Assembly (NCBI GenBank): GCA_965202625.1
Contig: CBDBBI010000010.1
Coordinates: forward strand, 928,001-992,000
Source: a bacterium
GTDB lineage: Bacteria; UBA8248
Direction: 5' to 3'
DNA: 64,000 nucleotides
The notes under the pieces were generated by a model that saw only the letters and a list, made by a program, of their open reading frames with translations, searched no databases and was not told where the DNA came from. Of this stretch, positions 60,304 through 63,797 are shown one piece after another. The position numbers and the translations under genes were made by a program. The stretch's first letter is position 1. Each line of letters begins with the position of its first letter.

Positions 60304-60322
60304 AAAAGGGTAAGGCGGATTG

Positions 60323-60481
60323 ATGCTGGAGGCAATGCGCCACGTATCCATCGCCGTTGAAAGCCTGGAAGAGGCGCGCGACTTTTACGCAAACCTGTTG
60401 AAACCTGTCGCGGAGGCCTTTATGTATGAGATTTTCTCAGACGATGCTTTGACGTTGCGAACAGGAGCAACCAAAAGGTGA
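60323..60481 (+). pseudogene. truncated VOC/methylmalonyl-CoA epimerase-like N-terminus
   Basis: MLEAMRHVSIAVESLEEARDFYANLL, then unrelated sequence; stop overlaps the ankyrin start. Confidence 0.6.
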
Positions 60482-61572
60482 GGAGATTTTTGAGGTTTTT
60501 TTCAGCGGCGTTTACGCTGTCGTTTGTCCTGACGGGCTGCGTTCCGTACCTTCCGGCGGCGCGGGTTCCGTACCCTACGGCGGCGCGGGTCTCATGCAGA
60601 TTGCACACTCCGTTCTTCTTCAAGCGCGCCTCGGCGGCGTCCGTTGCCCATTGTCTTGCACTCGGGGCGGACGTGAAGGCGCGCGACTTTTACGGAATGA
60701 CGCCCCTGCACAGGGCGGCGTGGCACAGCAATACGCCCGGTGTCGTGAGGGTGCTCCTGAGGGCCGGAGCGAACGTCAACGCGAAAGACAAGGACGGATG
60801 GACGCCCCTGCACTTCGCGGCGCGGTACAGCAATACGCCCGGTATCGTGAGGGTGCTCCTGAGGGCCGGAGCGAACGTCAACGCGAAAGACAAGGACGGA
60901 TGGACGCCGGGGGATTTAGTGATAAGAAACGCCGCCCTCAAGGGGATGGACGTCTATCGGCGGCTTAAGTGGAAGCGGGCGAGGCAACGGGAGCGGATAA
61001 AACAACGGGAGCGGGCGAGGCAACGGGAGCGGATAAAACAACGGGAGCGGGCGAGGCAACGGGAGCGGATAAAACAGCGGGAGCGGGCGAAGCAACGGGA
61101 ACGGGTGCGAAGCAACGGGAACGGGCGAAGCAGCGGGAGCAACGGGCGAAGCAGCGGGAAGCGGGCGAAGCAGCGGGAACGGGTGAAAGCAACGGGAGCG
61201 GGTGAAGCAACGGGAACGGGCGAAGCAACGGGAACGGGCGAAGCAGCGGGAACGGGTGAAGCAGCGGGAGCGGGCGAAGCAACGGGAACGGGCGAAGCAG
61301 CGGGAACGTGTGAAGCAGCGGGAACGTGTGAAGCAACGGGAGCGGGCGAAGCAGCGGGAACGTGTGAAGCGTGTGAAGCAGCGGGAGCGGGCGAAGCAAC
61401 GGGAGCGGGCGAAGCAGCGGGAACGGGTGAAGCAAGCGGGAGCGGGAACGTGTGAAGCAGCGGGCAGCGGGAGCGGGCGAAGCAGCCGGAGCAGCTTCCG
61501 CAGCAGCTTCTGCGGGGGTGGAAGCGGGGGCTTCAGGAGGAGCGTCAGGAGATAGAGGGAGATTTCGATTAA
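60478..61572 (+). CDS. ankyrin-repeat lipoprotein with low-complexity repeat tail (frame-disrupted as assembled; ORF stops at 61455)
   Basis: Lipobox LTGC, two TPLH ankyrin repeats plus caps, then a QRERAK repeat. C-terminal EQLPQQ...GDFD* (TAA 61570-61572) is in frame with the start. Confidence 0.75.
60974..61485 (+). repeat. 18-bp tandem repeat array (consensus approx. AAGCARCGGGARCGGGYG)
   Basis: Read directly; more than 25 degenerate units with small indels. Confidence 0.92.
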
Positions 61573-61736
61573 AGCAGTGAATCAGATAACGCGCGTCCCG
61601 AAAGGGGGGTGCCGCAGACGCCTTCGCGAACGCGATTTCCCATTCCGCCCGGCGGGGTTTGATGGCGCCGGCTCCTCGCAAGGAAAGCGGCGTCTTGTCG
61701 TTGCGACAACAACAAAACCAGGGAGGAACTAGAAAG

Positions 61737-63650
61737 ATGAAGAGATTCATGGGGACGTTTTCAGCGGCGCTTTTTCTTTTGCTCGCCCCTGCACCATCCA
61801 CGCCCGCTCTGGCGGCGCGGGTCTCATGCGGCTTTCTGACTCCGAACTTCTTCATACACGCCTCGGCGGCGGAAGTTGCCCGTTGTATTGCGGCCGGTGC
61901 GAACGTGAACGCGCGCTCCAAGGACGGAGATACGCCCCTGCACGCGGCGGCGGCGCAAAGCAAGACACCGGCGGTCGTGGCAGCGCTCGTGAAGGCTGGA
62001 GCGGACCTGAACGCGCGGTCCAAGAACGGAATAAAGCCCCTGCACTTGGCGGCGGCGCAAAGCAAAACGCCCGGTGTCGTAGCGGTGCTCCTGAAGGCCG
62101 GAGCGAAGGTGAACGCGAAAGACAAGTACGGAGATACGCCCCTGCACTGGGCGGCGTGGAACAGCAAGACGCCCGGTGTCGTGGCGGCGCTCGTGAAGGC
62201 CGGAGCGGACCTGAACGCGCGGGATGAGAATGGAATGACGCCCCTGCACCGGGCGGCGGCACACAGCAAAACGCCCGAAGTCGTGGCGACTTTGCTGAAG
62301 GCCGGTGCGGACGCGAACGCGCGGGATACTAAGTACGGAATGACGCCCCTGCACCGGGCGGCGGCACACAGCAAAACGCCCGAAGTCGTGGCGACTTTGC
62401 TGAAGGCCGGTGCGGACGCGAACGCGCGGGATACTAAGTACGGAATGACGCCCCTGCACCGGGCAGCGGTATTCAGCGAGACGCCCGGTATAGTGGCAGC
62501 GCTCGTGAAGGCCGGTGCGGACCTGAACGCGCGGGACAAGAACGGAGATACGCCCCTGCACGCGGCGGCGTGGAACAGCAAGACGCCCGGTGTCGTGGCC
62601 GCACTCGTGAAGGCCGGAGCGGACGCGAACGCGCGGGCCAAGAGGGGATTGACGCCCCTGCACGCGGCGGCGGCATTCAGCAAGACGCCCGGTGTCGTGG
62701 CCGCGCTCGTGAAGGCCGGAGCGGACGCGAACGCGCGGGACAAGGACGGATGGACGCCCCTGCACACGGCGGCGGTATTGAGCAAGACGCCCAGTGTCGT
62801 GGCAACGCTCGTAAAGGCCGGAGCGGACGCGAACGCGCGAGACAAGGACGGATGGACGCCCCTGCACCGGGCGGCGGCGAAAAGCAAGACGCCCAGTGTC
62901 GTGGCAACGCTCGTAAAGGCCGGAGCGGACGCGAACGCGCGAGACAAGAACGGATGGACGCCCCTGCACACGGCGGCGGTATTGAGCAAGACGCCCAGTG
63001 TCGTGGCAACGCTCGTAAAGGCCGGAGCGGACGCGAACGCGCGAGACAAGGACGGATGGACGCCCCTGCACCGGGCGGCGGCGAAAAGCAAGACGCCCAG
63101 TGTCGTGGCAACGCTCGTAAAGGCCGGAGCGGACGCGAACGCGCGAGACAAGAACGGATTGACGCCCCTGCACACGGCGGCGAAAAGCAAGACGCCCAGT
63201 GTCGTGGCAACGCTCGTGAAGGCCGGAGCGGACGCGAACGCGCGAGACAAGAACGGAGGGACGCCCCTGCACACGGCGGCGGCATTCAGCAAGACGCCCG
63301 GTGTCGTGGCCGCGCTCGTGAAGGCCGGAGCGGACCTGAACGCGCGAAATGAGGACGGATGGACGCCCCTGCACACGGCGGCGGCGAAAAGCAAGACGCC
63401 CGGTATAGTGGCCGCGCTCGTAAAGGCCGGAGCAGACGTGAACGCGCAGGATGAGGACGGAGTGACGCCCCTGCACGTGGCGGCGGTATTGAGCCAGACG
63501 CCCAGTGTCGTGGCATCTTTGCTGGACGCCGGAGCGAACCCGGCGGCAAAAGACAAAGCAGGCAAAACGCCATGGTATTACGCGAAAGAAAACGCCGCCC
63601 TCAAGGGAACGAAAGCCTATTGGCGGCTGAACGAGGGGCGCTTCAAATAA
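61737..63650 (+). CDS. secreted ankyrin-repeat protein, 16 internal ~34-aa repeats plus N- and C-caps
   Basis: RBS GGAGG; signal peptide MKRFMGTFSAALFLLLAPAPSTPALA; unit ARDxxGxTPLHxAAxxSKTPxVVAxLVKAGADxN. Confidence 0.95.
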   Translation: MKRFMGTFSAALFLLLAPAPSTPALAARVSCGFLTPNFFIHASAAEVARCIAAGANVNARSKDGDTPLHAAAAQSKTPAVVAALVKAGADLNARSKNGIKPLHLAAAQSKTPGVVAVLLKAGAKVNAKDKYGDTPLHWAAWNSKTPGVVAALVKAGADLNARDENGMTPLHRAAAHSKTPEVVATLLKAGADANARDTKYGMTPLHRAAAHSKTPEVVATLLKAGADANARDTKYGMTPLHRAAVFSETPGIVAALVKAGADLNARDKNGDTPLHAAAWNSKTPGVVAALVKAGADANARAKRGLTPLHAAAAFSKTPGVVAALVKAGADANARDKDGWTPLHTAAVLSKTPSVVATLVKAGADANARDKDGWTPLHRAAAKSKTPSVVATLVKAGADANARDKNGWTPLHTAAVLSKTPSVVATLVKAGADANARDKDGWTPLHRAAAKSKTPSVVATLVKAGADANARDKNGLTPLHTAAKSKTPSVVATLVKAGADANARDKNGGTPLHTAAAFSKTPGVVAALVKAGADLNARNEDGWTPLHTAAAKSKTPGIVAALVKAGADVNAQDEDGVTPLHVAAVLSQTPSVVASLLDAGANPAAKDKAGKTPWYYAKENAALKGTKAYWRLNEGRFK

Positions 63651-63721
63651 AGCGCGTCTTGCAAGGACGAGAGCGCCGCGGACGGCTTTGAGAACGCGAG
63701 GCCTATCCGTCTCATCCCGCC

Positions 63722-63752
63722 TTGACAAGCGAAGGGCGAAGAATGGCATAAT
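63722..63752 (+). promoter_or_regulatory. putative sigma70 promoter
   Basis: TTGACA, 19-nt spacer, TGG-CATAAT (extended -10), upstream of the TPR gene. Confidence 0.45.
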
Positions 63753-63797
63753 TTCACCGTGTCGCCGCCGTTCGACTGCAGAAGATGGGACTGAACG

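What the first reader, a model, noticed from the sequence alone, without database searches (positions are those of the whole stretch)
61737..63650. Natural DARPin-like ankyrin array with combinatorially shuffled variable residues
Seen: 16 repeats of about 102 bp with near-invariant framework DNA. Variation is concentrated in the hairpin (KD/KN/KY/EN/TKY/KR/ED), the residue before TPLH (D,I,M,L,W,G,V), the residue after TPLH (A,L,W,R,T,V) and a dipeptide after AA (AQ,WN,AH,VF,AF,VL,AK). These blocks recur in new pairings (W-WN/A-WN, A-AF/T-AF, R-AK/T-AK, T-VL/V-VL, R-AH/R-VF). Recent duplications include an exact 105-bp copy (62232-62441) and a near-exact 204-bp doublet (62733-63140). Established: these are largely the target-contacting positions randomised in designed ankyrins (DARPins). 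Inference: recombination between repeats may generate a diversifying secreted binder repertoire, conceptually similar to VLR or TALE modularity, for host or phage interaction.
Basis: partly seen in the sequence, partly recalled or inferred. Interest (0 to 1): 0.72.

Follow-up and report, generated by a model that had tools for sequence, protein, structure and literature searches.

The report
Exported ankyrin-repeat binder of sponge symbiont
This is an intact gene for an exported protein built of 16 nearly identical ankyrin repeats that differ mainly at their target-binding positions, one of a recently expanded family in a sponge-associated bacterium, which is a well-known kind of symbiont protein and not a new diversity-generating system.

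Summary
Window 61737-63650 (+) is one intact gene for a 637-aa protein: signal peptide, N-cap, 16 ankyrin repeats of 34 aa, C-cap. Differences between repeats sit at repeat positions 1-3, 5, 10, 13 and 14, on the hairpin and the first helix.

It is one of 13 leader-bearing paralogues on the main chromosome of a 3.1-Mb bacterium whose DNA is held by sponge-derived sequencing runs. At this locus the ankyrin gene pair was found only in this genome among the 13 compared. The 12 congeners carry metabolic genes there.

Recent repeat copies differ almost only at binding-surface codons: repeat 9 versus 10 has 7 of 7 differences in three codons. This points to framework homogenisation plus diversifying selection.

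The "shuffling" claim is only partly supported:
- A recombination signal appears family-wide.
- No reverse transcriptase was found, and nothing suggests a programmed mechanism.

The closest known kinds are eukaryote-like ankyrin proteins of sponge symbionts, Wolbachia ANK genes and fungal NLR repeats. This scan earlier noted exported ankyrin genes in another sponge bacterium (e1-2175075). Verdict: a new member of a known kind, of modest interest.

The parts
61721..61727 (+). Shine-Dalgarno-like GGGAGGA, 9 nt upstream of the ATG
   Evidence: Read directly from the sequence. Paralogues start at the equivalent MKKRMGTF, so 61737 is taken as the start and not the TTG at 61659.
61737..63650 (+). 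Intact gene for a 637-aa exported ankyrin-repeat protein (stop codon included)
   Evidence: ORF. Pfam Ank E 8.2e-120. AlphaFold2 mean pLDDT 86.4, pTM 0.71. Foldseek best matches are ankyrin-1 and AnkB 24-repeat domains and DARPins.
61737..61814 (+). Signal-peptide-like leader MKRFMGTFSAALFLLLAPAPSTPALA (26 aa): basic start, hydrophobic core, A-x-A end
   Evidence: By inspection; no signal-peptide predictor was run. Conserved in 10 of 10 aligned paralogues. Model residues 1-3 and 5-29 have pLDDT below 50.
61815..61916 (+). N-terminal capping unit with two cysteines that are invariant in the family (C31, C50)
   Evidence: Alignment A1. Related N-cap matches (partial for some loci) occur in 25 loci of other MAGs.
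61917..63551 (+). 16 internal ankyrin repeats (13 of 34 aa, 2 of 35 aa, 1 of 33 aa)
   Evidence: Coordinates per repeat. Per-codon variation. TRF.
62232..62441 (+). Exact tandem duplication of a 105-bp unit (repeats 4 and 5)
   Evidence: 0 of 105 mismatches.
62733..63140 (+). Duplication of a two-repeat, 204-bp unit (repeats 9-10 and 11-12)
   Evidence: 2 of 204 mismatches. Repeats 10 and 12 are identical; repeats 9 and 11 differ by 1 nt.
63552..63650 (+). C-terminal cap DKAGKTPWYYAKENAALKGTKAYWRLNEGRFK and stop codon
   Evidence: The same tail is found at the end of paralogues and in ankyrin ORFs of other MAGs.
60478..61455 (+). Upstream paralogue: short ankyrin ORF with a lipobox-like LTGC and 2 repeat-HMM hits, running into an 18-bp tandem array
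   Evidence: ORF. Pfam Ank_2 E 2e-25. 2 repeat-HMM hits. N-cap match. TRF period 18, 28.2 copies, at 60974-61492.

Best explanation
The region is one intact gene for a Sec-exported ankyrin-repeat solenoid: leader, cysteine-bearing N-cap, 16 internal 34-aa repeats, conserved C-cap. It belongs to a multigene family of exported or lipid-anchored ankyrin proteins that has expanded in this sponge-associated bacterium.

How the array grew (shown): by recent tandem duplication of one-repeat and two-repeat units.

How the pattern arose (inferred): unequal crossing-over or gene conversion keeps the framework, silent sites included, nearly uniform. Selection keeps or favours different residues at the hairpin and helix-1 positions (1-3, 5, 10, 13, 14) that form the canonical ankyrin binding groove.

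Function (inferred from the family's known role, not tested): an extracytoplasmic binder of host (sponge) or other foreign proteins, of the 'eukaryote-like protein' class that helps sponge symbionts deal with host phagocytosis.

Diversification looks like ordinary repeat dynamics plus selection. It does not look like a dedicated or programmed mechanism.
For: Gene and fold:
- Pfam Ank E 8.2e-120.
- AlphaFold2 pLDDT 86.4 with regular helix pairs.
- Foldseek and PDB sequence searches give ankyrin-1, AnkB and DARPins.

Export:
- Leader and two invariant cysteines in 10 of 10 aligned paralogues.
- Lipobox-like MVGC in some paralogues.

Family and expansion:
- 13 leader plus N-cap copies on C10, and 5 more on haplotig C9.
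- 186 repeat hits in 21 ORFs.
- 25 N-cap matches in G000 against 0-14 in 20 congeners.

Lineage-specific locus:
- M42-MqnA-[gap]-TPR synteny in 12 of 12 congeners, with no ankyrin hit in any gap.
- The gap of the relative tested holds two MmgE/PrpD genes, and similar ORFs are printed in the other 11 gaps.

Sponge habitat:
- 6 of 7 listed runs hold part of the stretch. They come from 2 studies, labelled sponge metagenome and 'organism A'.
- PMC13747020 (passages) reports that single ankyrin or other eukaryote-like proteins let bacteria escape sponge phagocytosis.

Recent duplication.

Variation at binding positions:
- Family-wide entropy is 3.0-3.3 bits at positions 3, 5, 10, 13 and 14, against 0 at positions 4, 7, 8, 11, 18, 24 and 28 (78 modules).
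- Repeat 9 vs 10: 7 of 7 differences lie in codons 10, 13 and 14.
- Non-synonymous changes per site at the variable codons are about 3 times the synonymous changes per site in the framework: 3.08 in this gene, 2.83 family-wide.
- Codons 10 and 31 reach p < 0.05 in both sets.

Internal conservation: the mean inter-repeat identity of 0.688 is the highest of 117 long ankyrin proteins compared (median 0.30).

No programmed mechanism: no PF00078 reverse transcriptase in a 99.7%-complete genome.
Against: - Positive selection is not cleanly shown. Within the variable codons pN/pS is 1.06, and most variable codons are individually not significant.
- The parsimony counts ignore recombination and saturation.
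- Codon bias could lower framework synonymous change and so inflate the ratio of about 3.
- Gene conversion within this gene is inferred, not demonstrated. PHI is p 0.089. The max-chi-square excess (0 of 200 permutations reach it) can also come from the variable codons lying next to each other.
- Export rests on inspection of the leader; no predictor was run.
- No expression data were obtained.
- No binding partner is known.
- The repeat count across the near-identical repeats 9-12 is not confirmed by any independent contig.
Confidence: 0.68

Rival explanations
1. Active combinatorial diversification. Frequent recombination between repeats, within and between paralogues, reshuffles variable 'alleles'. 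Cells or strains of one population would then carry different binder repertoires, functionally like VLR assembly or fungal NLR repeat shuffling.
For: - Family-wide PHI p 0.0007. The variable positions are statistically unlinked except 13-14, and association falls with distance (Spearman -0.28, p 5e-4).
- The same codon pairs recur on different frameworks: GTA TTG in repeats 9, 11 and 16; GCG AAA in repeats 10, 12 and 15.
- One contig of run X6 (depth 2.6) joins 61931 to 62034, exactly one repeat shorter, with no shared 31-mer at the joint.
- At a paralogous locus, two co-assembled strain variants have flanks 93-98.5% identical. Their arrays hold 30 and 19 modules, and none is more than 87% alike.
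Against:
- No reverse transcriptase was found.
- All 13 main-chromosome copies carry their own leader, so they do not look like silent donor cassettes.
- The single shorter-variant contig has low depth.
- Public runs are short-read contigs that break inside the array, so order and number polymorphism could not be measured.
Confidence: 0.2
2. A periplasmic housekeeping or protective role and not host interaction. For example, a binder, chaperone or immunity-type protein for the bacterium's own or competitors' envelope enzymes, with variability reflecting an arms race between bacteria or with phages.
For: - A Sec-type leader delivers only to the periplasm or envelope, and no dedicated secretion signal was identified.
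- Lipobox-like forms suggest membrane anchoring.
- That periplasmic ankyrin proteins with such roles exist in other bacteria is my recollection; it comes from no call.
Against: - Sixteen repeats is far longer than the small ankyrin immunity proteins I recall.
- In the 10 kb around the gene, no toxin or effector gene lies next to it. The neighbours are an M42 peptidase, MqnA and a TPR protein.
- ORFs with related caps are found in MAGs of several phyla. I recall some isolate names as coming from sponge studies, but the record titles state no habitat.
- Sponge-symbiont ankyrin proteins have experimental links to phagocytosis (PMC13747020 passages).
Confidence: 0.12
3. Assembly artefact: the array's length or order is mis-assembled from near-identical 102-bp units.
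For: - 294 of 1494 distinct 31-mers in the array occur more than once, and these cover 55% of it.
- No public contig spans repeats 9-12.
- The genome bin contains strain-variant haplotigs.
Against: - The gene lies in a 2.9-Mb contig.
- The reading frame is open through all 16 repeats with intact caps.
- Independent short contigs match unique parts of the array with 0 differences: X3 records 11-15.
- Each repeat except the pair 10 and 12 is unique in sequence.
Confidence: 0.05

Closest known systems
Eukaryote-like ankyrin-repeat proteins (ELPs/ARPs) of sponge symbionts
   Same: - Ankyrin arrays encoded in multiple copies by sponge-associated bacteria.
- Proposed to bind host proteins and modulate phagocytosis (PMC13747020, passages).
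- Runs labelled sponge metagenome hold this DNA.
   Different: - No functional test here.
- This member is unusually uniform internally: identity 0.688, the highest of 117 proteins compared.
- It carries family-specific caps.
- In the 15 papers listed, 'diversifying selection' does not occur, so I found no description of this pattern for sponge symbionts in that search.
Highly internally conserved ANK, TPR and WD repeats of fungal NOD-like receptors (PMC4986451, passages)
   Same: - Near-identical repeats.
- Variable and positively selected sites on the concave binding face (hairpin and inner helix).
- Repeat-number polymorphism.
- Proposed concerted evolution plus diversifying selection.
   Different: - Those are cytoplasmic eukaryotic receptors with a NACHT or NB-ARC domain.
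- This is a bacterial exported protein in which Pfam shows no credible non-ankyrin domain.
- Repeat-number polymorphism here rests on one low-depth contig.
Wolbachia ANK genes (PMC3563639, abstract)
   Same: Symbiont ankyrin gene families that change size by expansion and contraction at direct repeats, show intragenic recombination and differ between strains.
   Different: - That Wolbachia proteins act inside host cells and are often phage-borne is my recollection, beyond what the abstract states.
- Here there is a Sec-type leader.
- There is no phage context in the flanks.
Designed ankyrin repeat libraries (DARPins; ANK-N5C, PMC4308713 and PMC8683736, passages)
   Same: Consensus-like framework, N-cap and C-cap, and variable residues in the beta-turn and helix 1. 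DARPin fusions are among the best PDB matches, at 38-44% identity.
   Different: - Natural, with a 34-aa and not a 33-aa unit (an extra residue in the S-K-T-P turn).
- 16 repeats instead of 2-5.
- The likeness is expected, since the libraries copied the variable positions of natural repeats.
Ankyrin-R and ankyrin-B membrane-binding domain (24 repeats)
   Same: Best structural and sequence match: 8cs9_A, E 2.2e-32, TM 0.69; 4rlv, E 1e-151. A long superhelical solenoid with an extended inner groove.
   Different: 30-35% identity. A eukaryotic cytoskeletal adaptor, not exported, with diverged repeats.
Programmed diversifiers: diversity-generating retroelements, lamprey VLR assembly, TALE repeat-variable diresidues
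   Same: A constant scaffold with a few variable contact residues. TALE repeats are also 34 aa with a variable dipeptide (recalled, from no call).
   Different: - No reverse transcriptase in the genome.
- No incomplete gene flanked by silent cassettes, because the paralogues have their own leaders.
- The fold is ankyrin, not LRR or TALE.

Membership tests
Ankyrin repeat superfamily (Pfam PF00023 / PF12796) | Repeats of about 33 aa matching the Ank profile with the TPLH motif | tested here: met
   Ank E 8.2e-120 in 16 stretches; Ank_2 E 4.7e-117. 16 [T/K]PLH anchors.
Ankyrin repeat superfamily (Pfam PF00023 / PF12796) | Helix-turn-helix plus hairpin units stacked into a solenoid | tested here: met
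   AlphaFold2 pLDDT 86.4 with paired helices in every unit. Foldseek probability 1.00 to ankyrin-1 and AnkB.
Eukaryote-like ankyrin proteins of sponge symbionts | Encoded by a sponge-associated bacterium | tested here: met
   4 of 7 listed runs hold half or more of the sampled words. Labels are sponge metagenome and organism A, from 2 studies. Exact contig pieces were laid on the stretch.
Eukaryote-like ankyrin proteins of sponge symbionts | Alters uptake or survival of bacteria in phagocytic host cells | not testable with these tools
   Needs expression and phagocytosis assays of the kind reported in PMC13747020.
Highly internally conserved repeat arrays under concerted evolution (fungal NLR type) | Repeats over 85% identical across at least 100 aa (criterion quoted in PMC4986451) | tested here: met
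   Repeats 9-12 (136 aa) differ by 0-8 of 102 nt and by at most 4 of 34 residues. This holds for that sub-array only; the whole-array mean is 0.688.
Highly internally conserved repeat arrays under concerted evolution (fungal NLR type) | Variable or positively selected sites on the binding face | tested here: inconclusive
   The location is met: positions 1-5 are in the hairpin and 10, 13 and 14 in helix 1. Selection is only partly shown: codons 10 and 31 (and codon 3 family-wide) reach p < 0.05, and pN/pS within the variable codons is 1.06.
Highly internally conserved repeat arrays under concerted evolution (fungal NLR type) | Repeat-number polymorphism between individuals | tested here: inconclusive
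   One contig of run X6 (depth 2.6) lacks exactly one repeat. A paralogous locus differs by 30 vs 19 modules between strain variants. No long reads were available.
Highly internally conserved repeat arrays under concerted evolution (fungal NLR type) | NOD (NACHT or NB-ARC) domain with an N-terminal effector domain | tested here: not met
   The confident Pfam matches are ankyrin families. The few other rows (27-48 bits, 0 accepted stretches) overlie the repeats, and none is a NOD domain. The N-terminus is a leader and a cap.
Diversity-generating retroelement target | Reverse transcriptase gene with template and variable repeats | tested here: not met
   0 matches to PF00078 in G000 (99.69% complete). 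The control search rang in 3 of 14 known genomes.
DARPins (designed ankyrin repeat proteins) | Man-made consensus repeats with randomised positions | tested here: not met
   This is a natural chromosomal gene of a metagenome-assembled bacterium. Only the pattern of variable positions is shared.

The most novel reading that the evidence does not exclude
A bacterial, exported counterpart of the fungal-NLR or VLR style of repertoire building. In this reading, a family of ankyrin binders undergoes unequal crossing-over and gene conversion within and between arrays. Diversifying selection acts on five to seven groove residues. Together these keep producing new binding specificities, so that co-existing strains in one sponge carry different binder sets. 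Whole arrays would be swapped at some loci, as seen between contig C9 and the main chromosome.
Probability: 0.25. Interest if true: 0.6.

Novelty: new member of a known kind. Interest (0 to 1): 0.35.

Why it matters
Sponge symbionts are known to be rich in ankyrin proteins, and single such proteins can change how sponges handle bacteria (PMC13747020, passages).

This gene is an especially clean natural example of a consensus-like ankyrin scaffold in which nearly all recent change sits on the binding groove. Together with the strain-variant arrays at a paralogous locus, it offers a tractable case for two questions: whether symbiont binders evolve under host-driven diversifying selection, and which host proteins they recognise.

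It may also interest protein engineers as a natural 34-residue, 16-repeat, consensus-like scaffold. It does not reveal a new mechanism.

Tried and rejected
- DGR-type mutagenesis: rejected. No reverse transcriptase in the genome.
- Orthologous alleles in congeners: none. The best ankyrin match in 30 relatives is 55-62% identical, and the syntenic gap holds other genes in 12 of 12.
- Alleles in JGI metagenome contigs: an exact 32-nt pattern from the N-cap gave 0 matches. A protein scan gave 80 loci, best 59% identity over repeats only.
- Repeat order and number in public runs: all four runs laid were short contigs that break in the array, so no contig spans the stretch and parts without cover say nothing. 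The 'other letters' listed inside the array were not used as population variants, because contigs of other repeats or paralogues can be laid there at 90% likeness.
- Naming the organism: the atlas look-up with the neighbouring M42 peptidase gave only generic clusters. Relatives in the genome collection are titled simply 'MAG: bacterium'.
- Promoter and terminator scan: 0 promoter-like sites. Terminator-like sites were not above the shuffles (7 against 5.5 +/- 2.2).
- Max-chi-square mosaic test: formally significant (0 of 200 permutations). The best triplet is a 3-site cluster in codons 1-2, which adjacency of variable codons can produce without recombination, so I do not count it as proof.
- Earlier notes on this genome (a curved intergenic repeat; a decayed Mu-like island) and a kinase-ankyrin note have no bearing on this finding.
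Full report
**What is there**

Window 61737-63650 (+) is one open reading frame. It is preceded by GGGAGGA nine bases upstream of the ATG. The longer TTG start at 61659 is unlikely, because every paralogue begins at the equivalent MKKRMGTF.

The 637-aa product has four parts:
- a 26-residue leader: basic start, hydrophobic core, ALA end;
- a 34-residue N-cap;
- 16 internal repeats (13 of 34 aa, 2 of 35 aa, 1 of 33 aa);
- a 32-residue C-cap ending in YWRLNEGRFK.

Supporting results:
- Pfam Ank scores E 8.2e-120 in 16 stretches.
- Tandem Repeats Finder gives period 102, 15.9 copies, 85% matches.
- AlphaFold2 without an alignment gives mean pLDDT 86.4 and pTM 0.71, with a regular pair of helices per unit. 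Only the leader is disordered.
- Foldseek and a sequence search of the PDB put it next to the 24-repeat domains of ankyrin-1 and ankyrin-B and next to DARPins.

- The 105-bp copy is exact, and the 204-bp doublet differs at 2 positions.
- Codons 4, 7, 8, 9, 12 and 15 use a single codon in all 16 repeats. Positions 1, 3, 5, 10, 13 and 14 carry 4-7 residues, and positions 19, 23 and 31 carry 4.
- In the model, helix 1 covers repeat positions 7-14 and helix 2 covers positions 18-26. Positions 10, 13 and 14 therefore lie on helix 1, spaced i, i+3 and i+4, which would put them on one face. Positions 1-5 lie in the preceding hairpin loop.
- The match to 'DARPin positions' is therefore real. It is also expected, because the libraries copied nature.

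**Genomic and ecological setting**

The window lies in a 2.9-Mb contig of a 3.09-Mb genome. Six of seven listed public runs, from two studies, hold part of the stretch. Their labels are 'sponge metagenome' and a coded organism.

The gene belongs to a family:
- A repeat HMM finds 186 units in 21 stop-to-stop ORFs.
- The leader plus N-cap occurs 13 times on the main contig and 5 times on contig C9.
- Ten aligned N-termini share the leader and two invariant cysteines. Some have a lipobox-like MVGC. I read this as export through Sec, with some members lipid-anchored. No predictor was run.
- N-cap matches number 25 in this genome against 0-14 in 20 congeners.
- Ankyrin matches occur in 18 of 18 congeners searched, but the best is only 55-62% identical.

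The neighbours M42 peptidase, MqnA and a TPR protein are syntenic in 12 of 12 congeners. None of their 4-7-kb gaps has an ankyrin hit. In the relative tested, the gap holds two MmgE/PrpD genes (Pfam), and similar ORFs of 454-460 aa are printed in the other 11 gaps. This genome has only a paralogue about 32% identical to them elsewhere. The ankyrin pair at this locus is therefore found only in this genome among the 13 compared.

ORFs with related caps appear in metagenome-assembled genomes titled Rhodobacteraceae, Hyphomonadaceae, Trueperaceae, Longimicrobiales or Gemmatimonadota, Rhodospirillales, Porifericomitaceae and Nitrospinaceae. Many show the leader, a C..WNT..FF...C.AAGA..NAR N-cap and a ...YWRLN.ARF tail.

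**How the pattern arose**

Close repeat pairs differ almost only in the variable codons:
- Repeat 9 vs 10: 7 of 7 differences in codons 10, 13 and 14, and none in the other 93 nt (binomial 5e-6).
- Repeat 7 vs 8: 11 of 12 differences.
- Repeat 3 vs 14: 10 of 12 differences.

Codon 14 differs at all three bases between repeats 9 and 10 (TTG vs AAA). The same codon pairs recur in repeats whose frameworks differ by 14-24 nt: GTA TTG in repeats 9, 11 and 16, and GCG AAA in repeats 10, 12 and 15.

Uniform mutation cannot give seven changes in nine bases and none at about 25 silent sites elsewhere. Either the framework has been homogenised (unequal crossing-over or gene conversion) while the groove residues were kept different, or short groove segments were exchanged. 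Both need selection for difference at the groove.

Counts on a tree agree in direction:
- Non-synonymous changes per site at the six variable codons are 3.08 times (this gene) and 2.83 times (77 family repeats) the synonymous changes per site in the framework.
- Codons 10 and 31 reach p < 0.05 in both sets, and codon 3 does so family-wide.

Against a clean claim of positive selection:
- pN/pS within the variable codons is 1.06, against 0.48 elsewhere.
- Most variable codons are individually not significant.
- My parsimony counts ignore recombination, saturation and codon bias.

**Shuffling**

For all 6 pairs among the four blocks (hairpin, position 5, position 10, positions 13-14), the allele-pairing graph has no cycle. 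Each pairing can therefore arise by one change on a duplication tree.

At nucleotide level, 398 of 630 informative site pairs are incompatible, but PHI is not significant (p 0.089).

Family-wide (77 unique canonical repeats on the main contig; contig C9 and repeats of non-canonical length were left out):
- PHI gives p 0.0007.
- The variable positions are unlinked except 13-14.
- Association falls with distance.

A max-chi-square scan exceeds all 200 column permutations, but its best case is a three-site cluster in adjacent variable codons, so it is confounded.

No reverse transcriptase is present. The paralogues carry their own leaders, so they do not look like silent cassettes. I conclude that ordinary repeat recombination is likely, and that a dedicated mechanism is not indicated.

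**Variation between strains**

The public runs are short contigs that break inside the array, so order and number could not be read. One contig of run X6 (557 nt, depth 2.6) joins 61931 to 62034, exactly one repeat shorter. It has 146 nt on the shorter side, and no shared 31-mer that could cause a graph shortcut. This is a hint only.

Stronger, but at another locus: contig C9 is a strain-variant copy of C10 2,473,814-2,490,606. Its flanks are 92-98.5% identical. Yet the ankyrin arrays between them hold 30 and 19 modules, and none is more than 87% identical. A further 1.2 kb of repeats is present only in C10.

No allele of the window gene was found in congeners or in JGI metagenome contigs.

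**Comparison with what is known**

- Ankyrin and other eukaryote-like proteins are abundant in sponge symbionts, and single ones let bacteria escape sponge phagocytosis (PMC13747020, passages).
- Wolbachia ANK genes expand and contract at direct repeats and recombine (PMC3563639, abstract).
- Fungal NLRs have highly conserved ANK, TPR and WD repeats, with positively selected sites on the concave face and repeat-number polymorphism (PMC4986451, passages).

The present gene combines these known features in a bacterial exported protein. Its inter-repeat identity (0.688) is the highest of 117 long ankyrin proteins compared: the 116 of the 120 best database homologues that had six or more recognisable repeats, plus the window protein. 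The median is 0.30.

Two literature searches bear on novelty. 'Internal repeat conservation' with 'bacteria' and 'ankyrin' found only the fungal paper. None of the 15 papers listed for sponge symbionts holds 'diversifying selection'. Within those searches, I found no description of this pattern for sponge symbionts.

**Verdict**

This is a new, unusually tidy member of a known class of symbiont proteins, evolving by known processes. Interest 0.35.

Noticed in passing
window 60478-61492: The upstream paralogue is a short ankyrin ORF with a lipobox-like LTGC. It runs into an 18-bp tandem array (28.2 copies, 60974-61492) that is open in several frames on both strands. The ORF reads the same DNA as KQRERA, SNGNGR and GEATGA in turn.
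   Followed up: partly
G000 contig C9 8,995-12,995 versus C10 2,482,899-2,480,785: Two strain-variant copies of one region have flanks 93-98.5% identical but completely different ankyrin arrays: 30 versus 19 modules, none more than 87% alike, and one extra gene start in C9. A further 1.2-kb repeat block is present only in C10 (about 2,475,723-2,476,913).
   Followed up: partly
G000 C10 1,135,721-1,138,672 and 2,480,897-2,483,620: Two long ORFs (984 and 908 aa) contain internal C-caps. The 984-aa ORF also has a leaderless N-cap remnant (…CREWNTKALFK). Neighbouring ankyrin genes therefore seem to have fused in frame.
   Followed up: no
loci L062-L086: ORFs with related caps occur in MAGs titled as several different phyla or families. 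Many show the leader, a two-cysteine N-cap (C..WNT..FF...C.AAGA..NAR) and a C-terminal ...YWRLN.ARF tail. This suggests a shared, possibly horizontally spread, exported ankyrin family. The role of the conserved tail is unknown.
   Followed up: partly
window 60304-63797 compared with L050-L061: Between MqnA and the TPR gene, 12 of 12 congeners have no ankyrin hit. The relative tested carries two MmgE/PrpD genes there, and similar ORFs plus up to three further genes are seen in the others. This genome has the two ankyrin genes instead, and lacks close copies of the MmgE/PrpD pair.
   Followed up: yes
G000 contigs C1, C2, C5-C9: Seven of the nine small contigs are 92-99.8% identical, over long stretches, to parts of the 2.9-Mb contig. 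The bin therefore holds strain-variant haplotigs. C3 has only a 2-kb match at 89-91%, and C4 has no long match.
   Followed up: partly
window 61931-62034: One contig of run X6 (depth 2.6) lacks exactly 102 bp. It fuses the hairpin of repeat 1 to the rest of repeat 2.
   Followed up: partly
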